64,000 bases of DNA from Naegleria gruberi. Taxonomy: Eukaryota. The stretch lies in the NCBI GenBank assembly GCA_000004985.1, contig GG738846.1. One strand, written 5' to 3'. Shown here in pieces: positions 12,288 to 21,375 of this stretch. The notes under the pieces are model-generated. The model was not told the DNA's origin. It searched no databases and worked only from the letters and a program-made list of their open reading frames with translations. Both the position numbers and the translations under genes were made by a program. Every line of letters begins with the position of its first letter. Position 1 is the first letter of the stretch.

Positions 12288-14430
12288 ATGATACACAAAA
12301 AAATGTCTTCAAATAATTTGCTACTTGTTGGGAGTGGAATAGGAGGTGGTGGATTTTTACTTGTTTATTTGGCACAAAAATTATATAATCATTTTAATTC
12401 ATCATCACCATCATCTATTACTACTACTACTACTGCTAATTCCGAAGAAAATAATTCGTTATATAATTTATCCTATTTGATGAATGAAATATTCCCTTTT
12501 CACTTTCTTCCCGATAATTCAAATAGTGGATCAACAGTGTTTGTTGAAATGAAATTAAATGATAAGAAGAAATTAAATCAATTAATTAGTCTTTTGAGAG
12601 ATTATAATACATGTAAACAGGCTATTTTCAAGGAAATGTTATTTCATAAACTTGCACGAATAATCAAGCCAGATACTACTTTGGAGGATGTTAATAGTAA
12701 GGAGTTTTTCAAGAGGGAGAAACAGATTCATACTTGTTTGTGGATTTTATTGCATTGTTTAGTTTTGGTTGGAAATGATTCAATTGATGTCTTGCTTTCA
12801 ATTTTTAGATTGGATGATTTTTATCAATTCTTTATGGAAAAGGATTTTACAAAACACCAAGCAATGAAAATATTCAATTTAAAAGGTGATTCAGTATTCA
12901 ATGCAAGTGAATCATTCTTGTTTTCCATTGATATTATTTGGTTGGCATATGCAATTTTAGGTCACTTGTATTGTCAATCATTGAATAGCGAGGAGAAGAA
13001 TAATTTGCAATATTCGAAAAAGCATTTGGAGGTTTTACAAATTAATAAGGAAATGTTTGAACAATTGCTTTATTTATCGCCTTCTGGAGTGAATAATTCA
13101 AAACAAGAGGGAGAAAGATACAAGAGGAATATCTTATTTACAAGTGATAATCAAATTGGATACGATAATTTAGTTAAATTTTTAAATACTACAAACTTAT
13201 TGATGAGATGTGATGACAATACTCTAGTTCAACTATCATTATCAATATTTGGCCAACTAGTTGCCAATGTACAGGATGAAAATGTAATTTTGAAGAATTT
13301 CAATGTAAGTTTGAGTTTATGAATTTTTGAGATTTAATATTCATAGTTTTTAAAAAACACTGAACATTTATTGCTATGTACCGATGAGAATGTTATTCTT
13401 TCCCTAGGAAAATGTATTTTCACTCTATTTATCAAGAATGTTGCTATAATTTCAAATATTGTTAATAATCCTAAAATTGTGAATGAAATTATTTATTGGT
13501 CTCTTAATTCACAACAATCATCAACTAGAATTCAATGTAAGTGTTTATATTAATTAATTTTAAATTTAACATTGTAAAGACATGAATATATTGTACATTT
13601 TAATATTACAAAGCGAGAAATTTACTATTCAAGCTATCACCAATCCTAAAATTAACATTCTTGGAAATATTCACAATTTAATTACCAAATCAGATCCAAT
13701 ATTAGAATTTGTTTTAGTGCAATTAATTTATGGAATTTCTACTCATCCATCCTGTCACAAATTTATTATCGAATTTCATCATGAAAAACTTAATTTTGTA
13801 ACCATATTGAAAAACTTGACATTTTCCAAGCACTCACTCATTCGATACTATTGTATAATGATCTGGAGTAATTTATTGACCATGTACACAAAGAGTTCAG
13901 AACAAGTGAATTATGAGAAAATTTATGACAATAGATTCACAAGATACTTGTGTAAAAATGAACAAGTACTCAATTTAATCATGTTTTCATTTAAGGAGGA
14001 GAAGGAATTACTATTGAAGAAATCAATAACTAATTTGTTGAAAGATATTTGTTCATTCAGACAAAACGATTATGAACGCATCATACTATTTGAGCATTTT
14101 AATTTGTTATTTGAATGTGTGGATTTATTACACTTTCAAGTGAACTATTTGATGGATGTTTATCAGAACAGGGATGGACAATTGGTTGAATCTGCAGAGA
14201 TGGAGACAGTCGAAGGAAGTTTACAATTATCACTTGCATTATTCCATCTCATCACTACCATCGTACGAATGTCTCCAGACTCTAATAATGAAACATTGGA
14301 CATTTTACTTAATCAGTACCAAATCAAGAGGTACATTACTGATCTACTTTTTATTTTACAAAAACGTGGAGATAATAAGAATGTTACAATAATTTCAACC
14401 TTGTCAAATTCAATTTTTAAACTTTCCTAA
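12288..14430 (+). CDS. Hypothetical protein, about 685 aa, 3 exons; N-terminal Gly-rich hydrophobic segment, helical repeat-like body
   Basis: Exons 12288..13304, 13347..13536, 13580..14430; the start could instead be ATG 12303 (CACAAAAAAATG context). Introns 13305..13346 (GTAAGT..TCATAG, 42 nt) and 13537..13579 (GTAAGT..TAAAG, 43 nt). Phases are consistent: 2058 nt. It joins three track ORFs. No family recognised. Confidence 0.55.
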
Positions 14431-14453
14431 TATACTATAATTAATCAAAATTG

Positions 14454-15659
14454 TTACTCTATTATACAATTACTGTTTCTCTTGTTGGGTATCGTTCCGT
14501 TATCGCTGTTAGGTGAGCCAGTTGTTGGCGATCTAGGCATGTATCTCACTAATTGCGACAGGGAATATTTACAGCTGTATGATATTGCTGTTTCTATTAA
14601 ATCGTGTGAGAAATGTTTCAAAACCGAAAACTTACCAATGCACTTCTTAACACCTTGTCCTGATTTAGCAGAAGTTTCAATATATCCAACACAATTACCA
14701 ATCTTGTTGGCCAATGCCACTCCTTCATCAAATGTGACCACTCCATACTTTGAAAATTTAGAATCGATATAATATTTGAGTGAACCTGATTCGTTGATAT
14801 TCGATATTCTCAAATCCAATTTGGTTCCACATAAAAGGATTGGAACATTTGGTGCACATAAATTTAATTCTCTTATCCAAATATTTAAAACATTTTGAAA
14901 GCTCGATGTGTTCATTAAATCAAAACAACATATAAACAAGTCACATCCTGTATAACTCAGAGGTCTATCAATTTGATTTTAAAGCAACATTTCAATAAAA
15001 ACATACCTTATTTTGTCATAATCTTCTGATCCAGCAGTATCTATAATAGTGACAGCCCATGTCTTGTTATCAAATGTTGAATATGTTGTAAAATTATCAA
15101 AAATAGTTGGAAGATATTGATCTGATAAAAATTCATCATTGGCAAACCTCCCCAACAATGAAGTCTTTCCAACAGCACCTATAAATAATGAATTATTTAC
15201 AAAAATAATTATTAACCAAGAAACTTACCATCTCCAACCACTTTGTCAACAAAAAGTTATTGTAAAAAACATAACAAGCCCCTACTTACCCACAATTTTA
15301 ACAGGCATTGATTGATTAACTGCACTTGAAGGTGAAATACTCAAGACATTTTCCTCACTACCAGTAGAAACTAGAGCTGAATTTAAATGATTTGCACTGT
15401 TATTACCATTATTAGAAGTGGAGTTTCCATTATTATTATTGGGTGAATGGAAGAAAATGTAATCTTCTTTACTCCACGGTGACTTTTTAAATTTGATATC
15501 TTTTTTCTCGAATGATCCTGTTTTTAACAATATAAAATCATTATACACAATTTCTGAATAAATATTTTTGAATTTTGTAATCTTGTTTCGTCTATTATTT
15601 GATTTTTGCATTTTCTGAGTTTCATTTGGATAAATCATTGAACAAACTGTCCCAAGCAT
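14454..15659 (-). CDS. Rho/Rac-family small GTPase with a 120-aa N-terminal extension, 4 exons including a 12-nt micro-exon
   Basis: Exons 15659..15290, 15240..15229 (TGGTTGGAGATG), 15178..15007, 14964..14454. Introns 15289..15241 (49 nt, GTAAGT..AAAG), 15228..15179 (50 nt, GTAAGT..TATAG), 15006..14965 (42 nt, GTATGT..GATAG). Spliced product reads ...[39 protein letters not shown]...[28 protein letters not shown]...LCGTKLDLR...ETSAK...CIIE. The P-loop, switch regions, DTAG, TKLD and SAK motifs are all in place. The track only shows the first and last exons. Confidence 0.8.
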
Positions 15660-15759
15660 ATATTAGTACAAATTATCGTGTGAATTTATCATCATTATTA
15701 AAATTATCAAATATATAAAAAGGCACACACATATTTCAAAGTAATTATTATAAATATGA

Positions 15760-16476
15760 TTAAATTAAATGTGTGTAAATAAAATCATTACCTTGTTCCC
15801 ATAAAATTTCATCTTCACAAGCTCTGTACCAACTCTTACAAACCAAACAAACTCTATAAAATGAAATTCCATTCAAATATGTAAATATTTTAATCAAAAT
15901 TTCATTTGGTAAATCAGATGCCAAACCATATAAATTTCTCATTGATCCATTTTCATCCAATCCAATCAACATTTGATTAGAAATTACATTTCCATGTATC
16001 GTAATTCTCCTATCATCATCCAATGTTCTCATTGAAACGACAGAATTTGCATACTTGACACTACTATTTCTCTTCTGACCAAATAAACCCTTCCTACTTC
16101 GATGAGATTTTACATATTTTGCAGGTGATGATGATGGTGAAGATGTTGGTGGTATTGTTGAAGCATTTATGGATGATGGTGATGATGATGATGAATTAAA
16201 TGAAGAAATTATATTATTCGAATTGGATGAAGAATTTAATGATGATGGAATGCTCACATCACTACTAGTGGTCAATGACAATCCGGGAATGTTCAAATTG
16301 TTATAATTATGATTGGTGGTAGTTATGTGAGGATTGGTAGAAGGAGAAAGTTGCCGAATGTTCGTTGTTGTGGTTGTTGGTGGTGATGTGTTGTTGTTGT
16401 TATTGATGGTGGACTTTCCACCTCCAACAATCAACATTTTTTCTTCTATTTTTATTAAACAAGTGACAATTTCCAT
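15760..16476 (-). CDS. F-box protein exon; low-complexity N/S/T-rich region then F-box LPNEILIKIFTYLNGISFYRVCLVCKSWYRACEDEILWEQ
   Basis: ATG 16476..16474, with an alternative ATG 16437 in GAAGAAAAAATG context. The F-box sits at the C-terminal end of this ORF. The last 10 codons (GNDFIYTHLI*) begin with a GTAATG donor at 15791, so the ORF may not terminate here (see finding on fusion to the downstream Rho GTPase). Confidence 0.6.
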   Translation of the reverse strand: MEIVTCLIKIEEKMLIVGGGKSTINNNNNTSPPTTTTTNIRQLSPSTNPHITTTNHNYNNLNIPGLSLTTSSDVSIPSSLNSSSNSNNIISSFNSSSSSPSSINASTIPPTSSPSSSPAKYVKSHRSRKGLFGQKRNSSVKYANSVVSMRTLDDDRRITIHGNVISNQMLIGLDENGSMRNLYGLASDLPNEILIKIFTYLNGISFYRVCLVCKSWYRACEDEILWEQGNDFIYTHLI

Positions 16477-17063: not shown

Positions 17064-20000
17064 ATGGAATCATCGTATCATCAACAAGAAAAATCCGCAG
17101 AAGAAAACAAAGGTGCACATTTTGTACAACGTTCCTCAAGTAAAAACATGAACACTAAAGATGATTCTCACCATAAGGCTTCCAGTATGAGTAATGGCTC
17201 TTTTGGTCTTACAGTGGAGGAATTAACGGAGATGCATCAAACTAAAAACCTAAATATCTTATCCCAATGGGGAGGATTCACAGGTCTATCGAAACTCTTA
17301 CGAACAGACCTCAAAAGAGGTATTGATTGGGATAAAGAGGGAGACTTTGAAGAAAGAATTAATACCTTTGGCATCAACGTCTATCCCGAACCACCTGCTA
17401 GAAGTCTTATTAGAATATTCTTTGACTCGCTTAATGATACAACACTAATTATTCTTCTGGTATTTGCTTTCTTTTCTATGGTTTTCGGTGTTGCTTTCCC
17501 AGATGAAGAGGAGGAAAGACCATATGGTTGGATTGAAGGCTGTGCAATTTTGTTGGCTGTAGCTATTGTTACAACTGTAGTTACTGTAAATGACTACTCT
17601 AAGGAAAGAAAGTTTAGATCACTCACAAAAGAGTCTAAGAAAGTTCAAGTCAAAGTAATTAGAAATGGAAACAATCACAGTATTCTTGTAGACAGTATCC
17701 TTGTCGGCGATATTGTTGAAATTGAACAAGGTGATGGTATTCCAGGTGACGGACTGTGTATTGAATCAAATCAGTTAAAAACGGACGAATCTGTCATGAC
17801 AGGCGAACCTGATCTCATTAAGAAAAATACCACAGAAAGTCCATTCTTACTCAGTGGTTGTACAGTTGCTGAAGGATCTGGTAAAATGATTATTGTTGGT
17901 ATTGGTGTAAATAGTGAATGGGGAAGAACTCTTCAAAGTTTAAAGGAGGCTGATGAAGATAAGGGAGAAACCCCACTCGAACAAAAGCTAGACCAACTCT
18001 CTGTAAATATTGGTAAGGTGGGTATGCTCTTTGCTGCCTGTACTCTAGTGGTCCTTCTAATTGGTTATTGGATTAAAAAGTTAATGTACACCACAACATG
18101 GAATGATTCAACAAATGGATTTGAAGAAGCATGGGCTGATAAGAATATTGTTGAAATTGTCAAGTTCTTTGTCATTGCTTTAACCATTATTGTTGTTGCT
18201 GTTCCTGAAGGTTTACCATTGGCTGTCACTATTGCTTTAGCTTACTCTGTGCGTAAAATGATGAAAGACCAAAACTTGGTTCGTCACTTGGCGGCTTGTG
18301 AAACCATGGGAGGAGCAAACAATATTTGCTCCGACAAGACTGGTACACTTACTTTGAATCAAATGAGAGTGACCCATGCTTACTTTGGAGGTCGTTATTT
18401 TGGAGATCAGCTTGGATCGTTATTATCCACCCTGAGCTCAAACATTCTTCAAATTTTGATTGATGGTATTGTGGTAAATTCCAAAGCAAATCTTGTAAAG
18501 AATGAAGATAATAAGAATAAGGAGTATGCCACTCAGGGAAGTAAAACGGAGGCAGCTCTTTTGCTTTTGATTGTCAAACATCTCAATCAAACAATCGATT
18601 CCTACAGAGAACGAAGATCAGACCTGATGAGCGAAGAAAGAGGATGTCATTTGCAACTTCCATTCTCATCCAAGCTCAAAAGAATGAGTACCTTAATTCC
18701 AAATCCTGATGGAGATACAAAATATAGGTTATTTACAAAGGGTGCCTCTGAAATTGTTGTCAAACTTTGCTCTAAATATATGAGATCAGATGGAAGTCTT
18801 GAGACTATGACTAAGGAAAAAGAACAAGAAATTGTGCGTTACATTGAAGAAATGGCCAATCAAGGCCTCAGAACAATCTGTCTTGCATATAGAGATGTAA
18901 ATCCAGAGGTTGATTTTTCTTCAAGGGAGGAAGAAACAACATATCTTGATAACTTGGATCCAGTAAGTTTGGAAGAAAATCTCATCTGTATTGGTGTTGT
19001 TGGTATTAAGGATCCTCTCAGACCAGAAGTCCCAGCAGCTATTGCCCAATGTAAAAAATCTGGTATTATTGTTAGAATGGTTACTGGTGACAATATTCTT
19101 ACTGCCAAATATATTGCTAGGGAATGTGGTATCTTGAGCAAGGATGGTATTGCCATTGAAGGTCCTGATTTTAGAAAAATGACTCCAGAACAAGTTCATG
19201 AAATTCTTCCAAGACTCCAAGTTATGGCTAGAAGTTCTCCAACAGATAAGTATAATCTTGTCAAATATTTAAAGAAGAGAGGTGATGTAGTTGCTGTCAC
19301 AGGAGACGGTACTAATGATGCTCCTGCTCTTAAAGAGGCTGATGTTGGTTTGAGTATGGGTTTGAGTGGAACTCAAGTTGCTAAGGAAGCATCAGATATC
19401 ATTATTCTAGATGACAATTTTTCTTCAATTGTGAAAAGCGTTTTGTGGGGCAGATCTATCTTTGAAAATATCAGAAAGTTCTTAACCTTCCAATTGACTG
19501 TCAATATTGTTGCCTTGGTTTTGACCATTGTTTGTGCTATCAGCTCAACTTTTGTTAACCACTCGGGTGGATTTAAGCCTCCTCTCAGTCCTGTGCAAAT
19601 GTTGTGGATTAACTTGATCATGGACACCTTTGCAGCTCTTGCGCTCGCCACTGAACCCCCAATCCCTGAATTGTTGGACAGAAAACCTCATGGAAGAAAA
19701 GAAGGTCTAATAACCGTTAAGATGTGGATCTTTTTGATTGCCCAGGCTGTTTTCCAACTTACTGTTTTGTTTGTACTTTACTATGGTGCTAAGACATACA
19801 GAGCTGGTTCATTCTCCTTCGCAAGAGATGATGATGAAGTAAGAACTGTTGTTTTCAATGCATTCGTGTTTTGTCAAGTATTCAATGAGTACAATGCAAG
19901 AAAGATCAATTTTGAGTACAATATCTTTTCAGGATTGCACAAGAGTATCATGTTTGTTGTTATCAGTGTAATTATTATTGTTTTGCAAATTTTAATGGTA

Positions 20001-20258
20001 AATTTTGCATACTATGACCCTTCATTGCTTGCCACAGGAAAGGCTGATGGCACTCACCCATCTAACTTTACTCAAACCATTCCACTCAACTGGTATCAAT
20101 GGTGCTTGACTGTTTCCATTGGTTTTCTTGGTATCCCATATGGATATGTTATTAGATTTGTTGCTAGAATTATTTTTGCAATTATTGAAAGAAAGAGAAA
20201 GAACAAAGTTTTTGATGAGCAATCTGAAACCGTTACTACTCCAGACAGTGATTTTTAA
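17064..20258 (+). CDS. Plasma-membrane-type calcium-transporting P-type ATPase (PMCA, type IIB), 1064 aa
   Basis: Single continuous ORF. Phosphorylation motif CSDKTGTLT, the P-type hinge VTGDGTNDAPALKEADVGLSMG, TGES-like MTGEP, and 10 predicted TM segments. The N-terminal region has PMCA-like regulatory features. Confidence 0.95.
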   Translation: MESSYHQQEKSAEENKGAHFVQRSSSKNMNTKDDSHHKASSMSNGSFGLTVEELTEMHQTKNLNILSQWGGFTGLSKLLRTDLKRGIDWDKEGDFEERINTFGINVYPEPPARSLIRIFFDSLNDTTLIILLVFAFFSMVFGVAFPDEEEERPYGWIEGCAILLAVAIVTTVVTVNDYSKERKFRSLTKESKKVQVKVIRNGNNHSILVDSILVGDIVEIEQGDGIPGDGLCIESNQLKTDESVMTGEPDLIKKNTTESPFLLSGCTVAEGSGKMIIVGIGVNSEWGRTLQSLKEADEDKGETPLEQKLDQLSVNIGKVGMLFAACTLVVLLIGYWIKKLMYTTTWNDSTNGFEEAWADKNIVEIVKFFVIALTIIVVAVPEGLPLAVTIALAYSVRKMMKDQNLVRHLAACETMGGANNICSDKTGTLTLNQMRVTHAYFGGRYFGDQLGSLLSTLSSNILQILIDGIVVNSKANLVKNEDNKNKEYATQGSKTEAALLLLIVKHLNQTIDSYRERRSDLMSEERGCHLQLPFSSKLKRMSTLIPNPDGDTKYRLFTKGASEIVVKLCSKYMRSDGSLETMTKEKEQEIVRYIEEMANQGLRTICLAYRDVNPEVDFSSREEETTYLDNLDPVSLEENLICIGVVGIKDPLRPEVPAAIAQCKKSGIIVRMVTGDNILTAKYIARECGILSKDGIAIEGPDFRKMTPEQVHEILPRLQVMARSSPTDKYNLVKYLKKRGDVVAVTGDGTNDAPALKEADVGLSMGLSGTQVAKEASDIIILDDNFSSIVKSVLWGRSIFENIRKFLTFQLTVNIVALVLTIVCAISSTFVNHSGGFKPPLSPVQMLWINLIMDTFAALALATEPPIPELLDRKPHGRKEGLITVKMWIFLIAQAVFQLTVLFVLYYGAKTYRAGSFSFARDDDEVRTVVFNAFVFCQVFNEYNARKINFEYNIFSGLHKSIMFVVISVIIIVLQILMVNFAYYDPSLLATGKADGTHPSNFTQTIPLNWYQWCLTVSIGFLGIPYGYVIRFVARIIFAIIERKRKNKVFDEQSETVTTPDSDF

Positions 20259-20415: not shown

Positions 20416-21375
20416 ATGAGCACCAACACTGCTGAGCCACCTACAGAGGTAACAGGAACAAAAACTGGTGGTGTTGAACAAGTCTCACCAAATAAAACAA
20501 CACAAAGCGGATCATCATCTGTTGTAAATAAGAGTCATCATGGCATAAAAAGAATTATGAGTGAGATGAGAGAATTACAAAAAAATCCATCACCCGAATA
20601 TGAAGCACATCCTCTTGAAGATAATTTATTTGAATGGCACTTTACTATAGCTGGACCAAAAGAAAGTGCTTTTGAAGGAGGTATTTATCATGGTAGAATT
20701 ATTCTTCCACCTGAATATCCTCACAAACCACCAGATATTGTATTATTAACTCCCAGTGGAAGATTTGAAGTAAATACAAAGATTTGCCTCTCACTCACTT
20801 CCTATCACCCTGAAAGTTGGACACCACAATGGGGTATTAGAACTGTACTAATTGCACTACAAGGATTTTTCCCAACCGAAGCCAAAGGTATTGGAAGTAT
20901 TGATTATCCAGACAGTGTCAGAAAACGAATGGCCAATCAATCTAGAAAATGGAAATGTGATGTATGTGGAACTTGTAATGATGAAGTACTCAAGACACCC
21001 CAAGTTGTAGCATCATCATCTAGTAATAATACCAATTCAAATACAACTACTGCTACTATTACTACTAACAATACGAGTGAAACTATACAAACATCTACCT
21101 CAATAATTGAGGAATCAACATGTGAGGAAAAACGTTGTTGTAATAATACTGATCACACTCACCATCATTACGAAAATAAGGTTGTATCACGTGGAGGTCC
21201 AACACCACAACCAGCCACAACCACAAAACCGTCTGTACAAAAAAGTGGAGAATCAAACACAAAAACAGTACCAAAAAAGTCAACTGTTTGGATATTGGAT
21301 TTATTAATAGTGTTGGTAGCAATACTTATATCATATATTGTGTATATTAGATATTCTTCTTCTGGAAGGAGATGA
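20416..21375 (+). CDS. ER-anchored ubiquitin-conjugating enzyme E2, UBE2J/Ubc6 type
   Basis: ATG in AAAAAAAAATG context. UBC fold with HPxxW-type active site ...KICLSLTSYHPESWTPQWGI, followed by a Ser/Thr-rich linker and a C-terminal tail-anchor TM (VWILDLLIVLVAILISYIVYI). Confidence 0.9.
   Translation: MSTNTAEPPTEVTGTKTGGVEQVSPNKTTQSGSSSVVNKSHHGIKRIMSEMRELQKNPSPEYEAHPLEDNLFEWHFTIAGPKESAFEGGIYHGRIILPPEYPHKPPDIVLLTPSGRFEVNTKICLSLTSYHPESWTPQWGIRTVLIALQGFFPTEAKGIGSIDYPDSVRKRMANQSRKWKCDVCGTCNDEVLKTPQVVASSSSNNTNSNTTTATITTNNTSETIQTSTSIIEESTCEEKRCCNNTDHTHHHYENKVVSRGGPTPQPATTTKPSVQKSGESNTKTVPKKSTVWILDLLIVLVAILISYIVYIRYSSSGRR

What the first reader, a model, noticed from the sequence alone, without database searches (positions are those of the whole stretch)
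14454..16476. Possible F-box plus Rho-GTPase fusion gene
The F-box ORF (16476..15760) and the Rho GTPase ORF (start 15659) lie on the same strand with only 100 nt between the apparent stop and the next ATG. The last 10 codons of the F-box ORF begin exactly at a GTAATG donor (15791). An acceptor CAG at 15648/15647 would splice ...DEILWEQ(G|TT=V)CSMIYPNETQK... in phase, giving a 145-nt AT-rich intron. The result is one 578-aa protein: N/S/T-rich region, F-box, 120-aa linker, complete Rho/Rac GTPase domain ending CIIE. An F-box N-terminal to a substrate-type domain is the normal SCF-adaptor layout, and a small GTPase in that position would be an unusual architecture. The phase match has a one-in-three chance of arising by accident, so this is an inference.
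Basis: partly seen in the sequence, partly recalled or inferred. Interest (0 to 1): 0.7.

Follow-up and report, generated by a model that had tools for sequence, protein, structure and literature searches.

The report
Known Naegleria F-box–Rho GTPase fusion gene
The two neighbouring reading frames are one spliced gene of the amoeba Naegleria gruberi, not a dictyostelid, that joins an F-box to a Rac-like GTPase. This exact gene model and this domain combination were already published in 2021, so the finding is correct but not new.

Summary
The F-box ORF is 16476..15760 (-). A GTAATG donor starts at 15791 and a CAG acceptor ends at 15647. The resulting 145-nt intron (21% GC) joins ...CEDEILWEQ-V-CSMIYPNETQK in frame.

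The splice is real:
- Adjacent residues 251|252 of the N. lovaniensis orthologue map to the two sides of the gap.
- That orthologue's annotated gene has an intron at the same codon and phase.
- Two relatives encode F-box plus GTPase as one uninterrupted ORF.
- The spacing across the junction is gap-free in all ten family members aligned.

The organism is Naegleria gruberi (Heterolobosea), not a dictyostelid. Herman et al. 2021 (PMC8296547, Table S8) list this protein, with the same junction, as the corrected model of XP_002682912.1: 'Rac', extra domain 'F-box'. Their supplement states that F-box is the commonest extra domain on Naegleria Rab, Rho, Ran and Gα GTPases.

The best model has 564 aa (551 from the second Met), not 578. 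It has five introns, including a conserved 12-nt microexon inside the P-loop.

The GTPase is Rac-like but has Ser where the catalytic Gln61 sits, and it ends in CIIE. It is probably a membrane-tethered SCF adaptor, comparable to RhoBTB–Cul3. Its function is untested.

The parts
15792..16476 (-). Exon 1 (685 nt). It encodes a disordered N/S/T-rich N-terminus with two family-conserved short motifs, KRNS (16074..16063) and RRITIHG (16011..15991), followed by the F-box. A second possible start, Met14, is at 16437.
   Evidence: ORF list; splice model; family alignment A1; motif coordinates.
15793..15912 (-). F-box core, LPNEILIKIFTYLNGISFYRVCLVCKSWYRACEDEILWEQ (aa 189-228). It ends exactly at the exon 1 / intron 1 boundary.
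   Evidence: Pfam F-box-like PF12937, E 6.7e-16, 58.2 bits against a cut-off of 24.3; F-box PF00646, E 2.9e-10. The best solved-structure sequence match is the Skp2 F-box, 1fs1_A, E 5e-6.
15647..15791 (-). Intron 1: 145 nt, phase 1, GTAATG...TACTAAT...CAG, 20.7% GC. It contains the apparent stop of the F-box ORF (15762..15760) and the ATG at 15659.
   Evidence: only open-frame acceptor; orthologue residues 251|252 flank it; N. lovaniensis intron of 151 nt at the same codon and phase.
15290..15646 (-). Exon 2 (357 nt). It encodes the family-specific linker, with the conserved YPNETQK (15632..15612) and LLKTGSFEKKDIKFKKSPWSKEDY (15530..15459), a low-complexity N-rich stretch, and the start of GTPase strand β1 (PVKIV).
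   Evidence: Alignment A1. In the AF2 model of the orthologue the equivalent linker is helical or ordered, with pLDDT about 70-89. No solved-structure sequence match beyond the F-box.
15241..15289 (-). Intron 2: 49 nt, GTAAGT...AAG.
   Evidence: The matching intron in N. lovaniensis is 72 nt, at the same codon and phase.
15229..15240 (-). 12-nt microexon, TGGTTGGAGATG. It supplies V-V-G-D of the P-loop motif [11 protein letters not shown].
   Evidence: Without it the invariant [13 protein letters not shown] is broken. The same 12-nt exon is annotated in N. lovaniensis, L001 5272-5283. The published model also reads [14 protein letters not shown].
15179..15228 (-). Intron 3: 50 nt, GTAAGT...TAG.
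15007..15178 (-). Exon 4 (172 nt). It encodes the rest of the P-loop, switch I (YLPTIFDNF, 15116..15090) and switch II (DTAGSEDYD, 15041..15015). The TCA codon for Ser402 (15029..15027) sits where Rac1 has the catalytic Gln61.
   Evidence: Alignment to TC10 and Rac1; coordinates.
14965..15006 (-). Intron 4: 42 nt, GTATGT...TAG. This position is not shared with N. lovaniensis.
14636..14964 (-). Exon 5 (329 nt). It encodes TKLD (14825..14814), an extended Rho insert (14810..14736) and TSAK (14675..14664).
14594..14635 (-). Intron 5: 42 nt, GTAAGT...TAG. It is in frame and has no stop codon, so it reads through as an ORF. An alternative CAG acceptor lies 6 nt downstream.
   Evidence: The TAG acceptor gives CIETAISYSCKYSL, which matches N. 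lovaniensis CIKTAISCGCKYSL and Rac1 FDEAI without a gap.
14454..14593 (-). Exon 6. It encodes helix α5, a hypervariable tail and the CAAX-type end CIIE (14468..14457). The stop codon is 14456..14454.
   Evidence: A Cys at position -4 is conserved in all full-length family members.

Best explanation
The region 16476..14454 (-) is one six-exon gene of Naegleria gruberi. It corresponds to RefSeq XP_002682912.1 as manually corrected by Herman et al. 2021.

The product has 564 aa (551 aa from the second Met). In order, it has:
- a disordered N-terminus of about 185 aa;
- a canonical F-box;
- a conserved, partly helical linker of about 115 aa;
- a Rac-like Rho-family GTPase domain with a prenylation-type C-terminus.

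Shown here: the gene structure, the domain content, the family conservation across Heterolobosea, and the replacement of the catalytic Gln61 by Ser (Ser or Pro in relatives).

Inferred, not tested: the F-box docks the protein on Skp1–Cul1. The Rho domain, with nucleotide-binding motifs intact but probably hydrolysis-impaired and therefore mostly GTP-bound, is tethered to a membrane by its CAAX end. It serves as the target-recognition module, bringing Rho-effector-like partners to the SCF ligase. This would be a Cul1 counterpart of the RhoBTB–Cul3 arrangement.
For: Gene structure:
- The in-phase GT..AG splice is the only one that gives an open frame and keeps the F-box.
- The N. lovaniensis orthologue (P0001, 569 aa, E 3.9e-154) reads DDEILWEQVCTINYPKETQ across the junction. 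Its residues 251|252 map to 15793|15647.
- Its annotated CDS has a 151-nt phase-1 intron after the same ...ILWEQ and the same 12-nt microexon.
- P0005 (Logan contig) and P0004 (three JGI metagenome contigs) encode F-box plus Ras in single uninterrupted ORFs.
- All ten aligned members show no gap between LW and YP.
- Table S8 of PMC8296547 gives the identical sequence and junction for N. gruberi, labelled Rac with an F-box.

Domains:
- Pfam Ras 1.1e-37 and F-box-like 6.7e-16.
- The best solved relatives are TC10, Rac1, Rac3, ROPs and RhoA at E about 1e-40. Foldseek on the orthologue model returns only Rho-family chains among the listed top 50.
- The F-box is closest to the Skp2 F-box, solved in complex with Skp1.

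Mechanistic hints:
- GDGAVGKT, T35, TKLD and SAK are kept, but DTAGSEDYD replaces DTAGQEDYD.
- A Cys four residues from the end is conserved: CIIE, CIIQ, CIIG, CGIM, CGIA, CGLM, CKFM.
- The authors of PMC8296547 themselves propose 'GTPase-dependent ubiquitination'.
Against: - No transcript data for N. gruberi could be examined here, so the splice rests on comparative evidence and on a published curated model. The basis for that curation (sequence inspection) is not RNA evidence either.
- The functional model is entirely inferential. Skp1 binding, nucleotide state, prenylation and substrates are untested.
- The terminal residue E in CIIE is, from general knowledge, a poor fit to known farnesyl- or geranylgeranyl-transferase preferences.
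- F-box proteins are often themselves SCF substrates, so the F-box could control turnover of the GTPase rather than recruit third-party targets.
Confidence: 0.85

Rival explanations
1. There are two independent genes. One is a 238-aa F-box-only protein ending ...WEQGNDFIYTHLI*. The other is a separate N-terminally extended Rho GTPase starting at ATG 15659. The in-phase GT..AG is a coincidence.
For: Both ORFs are individually open and start with ATG. A phase match alone has a one-in-three chance. No N. gruberi transcript data were available.
Against: - Orthologues and paralogues in at least three heterolobosean genera carry both domains in one protein, with gap-free conservation across the junction.
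- The intron position and phase are conserved in N. lovaniensis.
- Intronless single-ORF versions exist.
- The 10-codon tail GNDFIYTHLI has no counterpart in any homologue.
- The published curated model is fused.
Confidence: 0.02
2. The gene is fused, but the F-box works mainly in cis. It recruits SCF to ubiquitinate and destabilise the GTPase itself, as a built-in turnover switch possibly dependent on nucleotide state. It would not present other proteins as substrates.
For: The architecture is the same as in the best explanation. From established knowledge, many F-box proteins are auto-ubiquitinated within SCF, and RhoBTB2 is both an adaptor and a substrate of Cul3.
Against: - The conserved switch I and effector face, and the conserved loss of Gln61, suggest a stably GTP-bound, partner-binding domain rather than only a degradable cargo.
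- A 115-aa conserved structured linker is typical of F-box proteins that position a substrate-binding domain.
- Nothing here distinguishes the two experimentally.
Confidence: 0.25
3. Both kinds of product are made. The fused mRNA is one isoform. Retention of intron 1 gives an F-box-only protein, or an internal promoter gives a GTPase-only protein.
For: Intron 1 contains an in-frame stop 10 codons in and an ATG in the downstream frame. Intron 5 is in frame and stop-free, so its retention would also give a viable protein.
Against: There is no positive evidence. The ATG at 15659 and the tail of the short ORF are not conserved in N. lovaniensis, whose intron differs in sequence.
Confidence: 0.1
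4. It is a decaying pseudogene from the large, fast-turning-over Naegleria Rho expansion.
For: Herman et al. note birth-and-death evolution and putative pseudogenes among Naegleria GTPases. The catalytic Gln is lost and the CAAX ends in E.
Against: - All six exons are open with canonical splice sites.
- It shares 56-58% identity with N. lovaniensis over the whole ordered part.
- The Gln-to-Ser/Pro change is shared by the whole family, so it is a family trait and not decay.
- Table S8 does not flag this entry as a pseudogene.
Confidence: 0.01

Closest known systems
N. gruberi 'Rac' XP_002682912.1*, the manually corrected model in Herman et al. 2021, BMC Biol 19:142, Additional file 10 / Table S8 (PMC8296547)
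   Same: It is the same gene. The sequence is identical over all ~400 residues that the held copy of the table shows before truncating the entry. That includes the junction CEDEILWEQVCSMIYPNETQK and the microexon-derived [14 protein letters not shown]. It is annotated 'Rac' with additional domain 'F-box'.
   Different: Their model starts at the second Met (MLIVGGGKST, window 16437). The stored table truncates the sequence after ...DYDKIRPLS, so their choice for the last intron could not be compared.
Naegleria lovaniensis C9374_000127 (UniRef 'F-box domain-containing protein', 569 aa), Willaertia magna ABK040_012760 and Acrasis kona 'Rho-related protein RAC'
   Same: They are orthologues or close family members. 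They share the order of RITxHG motif, F-box, YPxET, LLKTGxW...KKSPWSKEDY linker, Rho domain with DTAG[S/P]ED, and CAAX. N. lovaniensis shares the intron 1 position and phase and the 12-nt microexon.
   Different: Identity is 56%, 48% and 35% in the alignment. The N-terminal disordered regions are unrelated. The later intron positions differ: N. lovaniensis has an intron after CFDLVNSS and none at the two last N. gruberi positions. There is no shared synteny with the N. lovaniensis locus.
RhoBTB proteins (metazoa, Dictyostelium RacA, and Naegleria according to PMC8296547)
   Same: They are atypical Rho-family GTPase domains fused in one polypeptide to a cullin-RING ligase adaptor module. From established knowledge, the BTB domains bind Cul3. 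This is the nearest functional analogy.
   Different: The adaptor module is a BTB tandem placed C-terminal to the GTPase and acts through Cul3. Here it is an N-terminal F-box, implying Skp1–Cul1. RhoBTB lacks a CAAX box, whereas this family keeps one. The two are not homologous outside the GTPase domain.
Other Naegleria F-box–GTPase fusions (F-box–Rab-like clades, F-box–Ran, Gα with a nested F-box, and other F-box–Rac paralogues such as XP_002671699.1 and XP_002676320.1)
   Same: They share the same design principle of an F-box N-terminal to a Ras-superfamily GTPase domain, described as the most frequent extra domain in Naegleria GTPases.
   Different: Those Rac paralogues place the F-box at the extreme N-terminus. 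They keep DTAGQ and lack the RITxHG and KKSPWSKEDY motifs. The gene studied here belongs to a distinct lineage that also occurs in Willaertia and Acrasis.
Skp2 and other canonical F-box substrate receptors
   Same: The F-box sequence is closest to that of Skp2. The layout of F-box, helical linker and C-terminal binding domain matches.
   Different: The C-terminal module is a small GTPase instead of LRR, WD40 or other repeats.

Membership tests
Rho-family small GTPases (Rac-like) | G1 P-loop GxxxxGK[ST] | tested here: met
   GDGAVGKT (aa 350-357) is identical to Rac1. It is assembled across the 12-nt microexon.
Rho-family small GTPases (Rac-like) | Switch I with the conserved Thr35 (YxPTVFDNY) | tested here: met
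   YLPTIFDNF (aa 373-381) aligns to Rac1 YIPTVFDNY.
Rho-family small GTPases (Rac-like) | G3 / switch II DxxGQE with the catalytic Gln61 | tested here: not met
   The sequence is DTAGSEDYD. Ser402 aligns with Rac1 Gln61. All other full-length family members have Ser or Pro there. This marks an atypical, probably hydrolysis-impaired Rho.
Rho-family small GTPases (Rac-like) | G4 [NT]KxD and G5 SA[KL] guanine-specificity motifs | tested here: met
   TKLD (aa 456-459) and TSAK (aa 506-509).
Rho-family small GTPases (Rac-like) | Rho insert between β5 and α4 | tested here: met
   The segment RISNINESGSLKYYIDSKFSKYGVV aligns to the Rac1 and TC10 insert region and is about 7 residues longer. It is low-confidence in the AF2 model.
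Rho-family small GTPases (Rac-like) | Best similarity to Rho-family rather than Ras, Rab or Arf members | tested here: met
   The top 60 PDB sequence hits are all TC10, Rac, ROP or RhoA. The top 50 Foldseek hits are all Rho family.
Rho-family small GTPases (Rac-like) | C-terminal CAAX prenylation box | tested here: inconclusive
   CIIE has the Cys at -4, which is conserved family-wide. X = Glu is not a typical prenyltransferase-preferred residue (own knowledge). Lipidation is not testable here.
F-box proteins / SCF substrate receptors | F-box motif above the curated threshold | tested here: met
   PF12937 scores 58.2 bits (cut-off 24.3) and PF00646 scores 40 bits (cut-off 20.5) at aa 187-230. 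There is an LPxE...VCKxW...LW pattern similar to Skp2.
F-box proteins / SCF substrate receptors | Binding to Skp1 and assembly with Cul1–Rbx1 | not testable with these tools
   This needs co-purification or a two-hybrid assay.
F-box proteins / SCF substrate receptors | A protein-interaction module C-terminal to the F-box that recruits substrates | tested here: inconclusive
   A folded linker plus a Rho domain occupies that position. Whether it binds substrates is unknown.
Heterolobosean F-box–linker–Rho family (the lineage of XP_002682912.1) | One polypeptide with RITxHG, F-box, YPxET, LLKTGxW..KKSPWSKEDY, DTAG[S/P]ED Rho domain and CAAX | tested here: met
   All motifs are present and aligned without gaps to the Naegleria, Willaertia and Acrasis members. 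The sequence is identical to the published N. gruberi entry.
RhoBTB | Tandem BTB domains C-terminal to the Rho domain | tested here: not met
   There is no BTB hit in Pfam, and the protein ends about 45 aa after the GTPase domain. The resemblance is an analogy only.

The most novel reading that the evidence does not exclude
This is one member of an ancient family found in Naegleria, Willaertia and Acrasis. In this family a GTP-locked, membrane-anchored Rho domain would itself be the substrate-recognition module of an SCF (Cul1) ubiquitin ligase, so that Rho effectors or regulators are ubiquitinated where the 'active Rho' sits. That would be an independently evolved Cul1 counterpart of RhoBTB–Cul3. 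It has only been hinted at in a supplement and never tested.
Probability: 0.35. Interest if true: 0.55.

Novelty: already known. Interest (0 to 1): 0.28.

Why it matters

Biologically, F-box–GTPase fusions link two major regulatory systems, small-GTPase switching and cullin-RING ubiquitination, in one polypeptide. The lineage studied here is conserved across heterolobosean genera and has lost the catalytic Gln. That makes it a tractable candidate for testing 'GTPase-dependent ubiquitination', the idea raised by Herman et al. 2021.

The architecture and this exact gene model are already in the literature and in public annotations of sister species. The finding therefore adds no new kind of object. 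What remains open is function.

Tried and rejected
- **Dictyostelid origin: rejected.** The best homologues are Naegleria, Willaertia and Acrasis, and the sequence is identical to a published N. gruberi entry.
- **48-nt last intron with a CAG acceptor (my first model, 562 aa): replaced.** The 42-nt TAG acceptor restores ETAIS and aligns without a gap to N. lovaniensis and Rac1.
No coordinates or PAE were available, so linker–GTPase packing could not be examined.
- **Second homologue search with only the F-box plus linker (178 aa): nothing returned (15 candidates, none significant).** The first search proves homologues exist, so this is a limit of the word index and not evidence of absence.
- **Foldseek against afdb50: unavailable.**
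- **Literature search for F-box, Rho and Acrasis: no papers.** A broader search for F-box plus Ras-superfamily architectures found nothing more specific than PMC8296547.
- **tblastn of the protein against the whole window: no paralogue elsewhere in the 64 kb.**
- **Exact-sequence cluster lookup of ten alternative gene models: prepared but not run.** The first homologue search had already shown no near-identical protein in that collection.
Full report
**1. Observation**

On the minus strand the ORF 16476..15760 encodes 238 aa with an F-box near its end. The next ORF starts at ATG 15659, 100 nt after the stop.

The sequence ...GAA CAA G|GTAATG places a donor with its first intron base at 15791. 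The sequence ...GGGACAG|TT TGT TCA places an acceptor ending at 15647. Removing the 145 nt (20.7% GC) joins G15792 to TT15646-15645 as GTT. The product reads ...CEDEILWEQ-V-CSMIYPNETQK. The intron carries a near-consensus TACTAAT about 20 nt upstream of the acceptor.

An exhaustive scan of GT/AG pairs in the region finds 15647 as the only acceptor that gives an open frame. Of the four in-phase donors, only 15791 keeps the complete F-box.

**2. The rest of the gene**

Four further short introns are needed to read the GTPase:

| Intron | Coordinates | Length |
|---|---|---|
| 2 | 15289..15241 | 49 nt |
| 3 | 15228..15179 | 50 nt |
| 4 | 15006..14965 | 42 nt |
| 5 | 14635..14594 | 42 nt |

Between introns 2 and 3 lies a 12-nt microexon (15240..15229, TGGTTGGAGATG). 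It supplies V-V-G-D of the invariant [11 protein letters not shown].

Intron 5 is in frame and free of stop codons, which is why it reads through as an ORF. With its TAG acceptor the protein reads GVKKCIETAISYSCKYSL. This aligns without a gap to N. lovaniensis GVKSCIKTAISCGCKYSL and to Rac1 ...FDEAI.

The product has 564 aa from Met1 or 551 aa from Met14.

**3. Is the fusion real?**

Pfam finds F-box-like (aa 187-230, E 6.7e-16) and Ras (aa 345-518, E 1.1e-37) in the spliced product.

A search of public proteins returned full-length relatives that all carry both domains:
- Naegleria lovaniensis C9374_000127 (569 aa, E 3.9e-154);
- Willaertia magna ABK040_012760 (558 aa);
- Acrasis kona 'Rho-related protein RAC' (472 aa);
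- several environmental or EukProt sequences.

The N. lovaniensis protein reads DDEILWEQVCTINYPKETQ across the junction. In tblastn its residues 40-251 map to 16395..15793 and residues 252-569 map to 15647..14457. Consecutive residues therefore flank exactly the proposed intron.

Reconstructing the N. lovaniensis CDS on its genomic locus shows a 151-nt phase-1 intron after the same ...ILWEQ and the same 12-nt microexon.

Two relatives encode F-box plus GTPase as one uninterrupted ORF: P0005 on a Logan contig and P0004 on three JGI contigs. For them the fusion does not depend on any splice prediction.

In the ten-sequence alignment the distance from the F-box LW to the following YP is constant, and the segment has no gaps. 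The 10-codon tail of the short ORF (GNDFIYTHLI) has no counterpart anywhere. I put the two-gene alternative at about 2%.

**4. Identity of the locus and prior knowledge**

The window is Naegleria gruberi, not a dictyostelid.

Herman et al. 2021 (BMC Biol 19:142, PMC8296547) list in Additional file 10 (Table S8, sheet N.gruberi) a 'Rac' with additional domain 'F-box', ID XP_002682912.1*. The asterisk marks a manually corrected gene model. The printed sequence is MLIVGGGKST...CEDEILWEQVCSMIYPNETQK...[15 protein letters not shown]...[15 protein letters not shown]..., which is identical to the product derived here.

[quoted passage not shown] The architecture and this exact model are therefore published. 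Sister-species orthologues are annotated as fused in GenBank and UniRef. I found no functional study.

**5. Anatomy of the protein**

The family alignment and an AlphaFold2 model of the N. lovaniensis orthologue (mean pLDDT 55.6 because half the chain is disordered) give this picture.

- (a) About 185-210 N-terminal residues are disordered. They hold two conserved short motifs, K-R-x-N-S (aa 135-138) and R-I-T-x-H-G (aa 157-162).
- (b) The F-box helices follow. Their sequence is closest to the Skp2 F-box, solved in complex with Skp1.
- (c) A family-specific linker has helices and one short strand at pLDDT about 70-89. It contains YP(N/E)ET and LLKTGxW...KKSPWSKEDY and has no solved-structure sequence match.
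- (d) A Rho-family GTPase domain has TC10, Rac1, Rac3, plant ROPs and RhoA as its best solved relatives (E about 1e-40).
  - GDGAVGKT, switch I [9 protein letters not shown], TKLD and TSAK are present, along with an extended Rho insert.
  - Switch II is DTAGSEDYD, so Ser402 (TCA 15029..15027) stands where Rac1 has the catalytic Gln61.
  - All other full-length members have Ser or Pro there. This is a family trait and not decay.
- (e) The hypervariable tail ends in C-a-a-X: CIIE here, and CIIQ, CIIG, CGIM, CGIA, CGLM and CKFM in relatives.

**6. How it most likely works (inference)**

The layout is F-box, structured linker, then C-terminal binding module. That is the layout of SCF substrate receptors.

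The Rho domain keeps everything needed to bind nucleotide and effectors but lacks the catalytic Gln. From established knowledge of Ras and Rho Q61 mutants and of atypical Rho proteins, this predicts a mostly GTP-bound, GAP-insensitive state. The conserved Cys at -4 predicts membrane anchoring.

I therefore favour a membrane-tethered SCF adaptor whose 'permanently active' Rho face recruits effector-like partners for ubiquitination. This is functionally analogous to RhoBTB–Cul3, but it is built with an N-terminal F-box and retains the CAAX box. I give this reading about 0.45 within the fused-gene scenario.

The main rival (about 0.25) is that the F-box acts in cis to control the GTPase's own turnover.

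Uncertainties:
- The X = Glu of CIIE is atypical for prenyltransferases.
- The alternative start codon is undecided.
- Intron-retention isoforms are possible.

**7. Membership**

It is a Rho-family (Rac-like) GTPase by sequence, fold and insert. It fails the Gln61 criterion, so it is an atypical Rho. It is an F-box protein by curated Pfam thresholds, with Skp1 binding untested. It is not a RhoBTB, because it has no BTB domain.

It belongs to a lineage of F-box–linker–Rho proteins found in Naegleria, Willaertia and Acrasis. That lineage is distinct from the other N. gruberi F-box–Rac paralogues in Table S8, which keep DTAGQ and lack the linker motifs.

**8. Verdict**

The fusion interpretation is supported, with corrections to taxon and length. 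Novelty: already known. Interest is low to moderate. The object is correct and biologically appealing, but it is documented, and only its function remains open.

Noticed in passing
window 15229-15240 (-); L001 5272-5283: A 12-nt microexon (TGGTTGGAGATG) encodes V-V-G-D in the middle of the GTPase P-loop. It is flanked by 49- and 50-nt introns. Its position, length and phase are conserved between N. gruberi and N. lovaniensis. Gene predictors can easily skip such an exon in frame, which would give KIVGAVGKT. That may be why the RefSeq model needed manual correction.
   Followed up: partly
window 14594-14635 (-): The last intron is 42 nt, in frame and without stop codons. Read-through gives a plausible-looking but 14-aa-longer protein. 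A second acceptor (CAG) 6 nt downstream is also in frame. Only comparison with orthologues picks the TAG acceptor.
   Followed up: yes
window 15027-15029 (-), Ser402: The catalytic Gln61 of Rho and Ras is replaced by Ser. Every other full-length family member has Ser or Pro, whereas other N. gruberi F-box–Rac paralogues in the published table keep Gln. This suggests a constitutively GTP-bound subfamily.
   Followed up: partly
window 15991-16011 and 16063-16074 (-): Two short motifs in the otherwise unalignable, disordered N-terminus are conserved across Naegleria, Willaertia, Acrasis and environmental relatives. They are R-I-T-x-H-G, about 27 residues upstream of the F-box, and a basic K-R-x-N-S. 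Their function is unknown; they could be a phosphorylation or docking site.
   Followed up: no
window 14431-14453: The stop codon of a convergent + strand ORF (13582..14430, 282 aa, no Pfam hit) lies only 23 nt from the stop codon of the F-box–Rho gene (14454-14456). If that ORF is a real exon, the two 3' UTRs must overlap.
   Followed up: no
window 17064-20258 (+) and 20416-21375 (+): The divergent neighbour, 587 nt upstream of the F-box–Rho start, is an intronless 1064-aa P-type Ca2+-ATPase of the plasma-membrane type. The next ORF encodes a ubiquitin-conjugating (E2, UQ_con) domain protein. The proximity of an E2 to an F-box gene is probably coincidental. The N. lovaniensis orthologue has different neighbours (IG_AIR9 and a CPSF_A/RSE1 β-propeller protein).
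   Followed up: partly
L001 5567-5610 versus window 14965-15006 and 14594-14635: Intron positions in the 3' half of the gene differ between the two Naegleria species, while the first three introns are shared. This indicates recent intron gain or loss (or sliding) within the genus.
   Followed up: no
P0015 (EukProt Trinity transcript, 661 aa): In this unrelated-looking relative, a Rho GTPase domain appears split. The N-terminal half is followed by a 2OG-Fe(II) oxygenase-type region and an F-box before the C-terminal GTPase part. This may be another F-box/GTPase arrangement or an assembly chimera.
   Followed up: no
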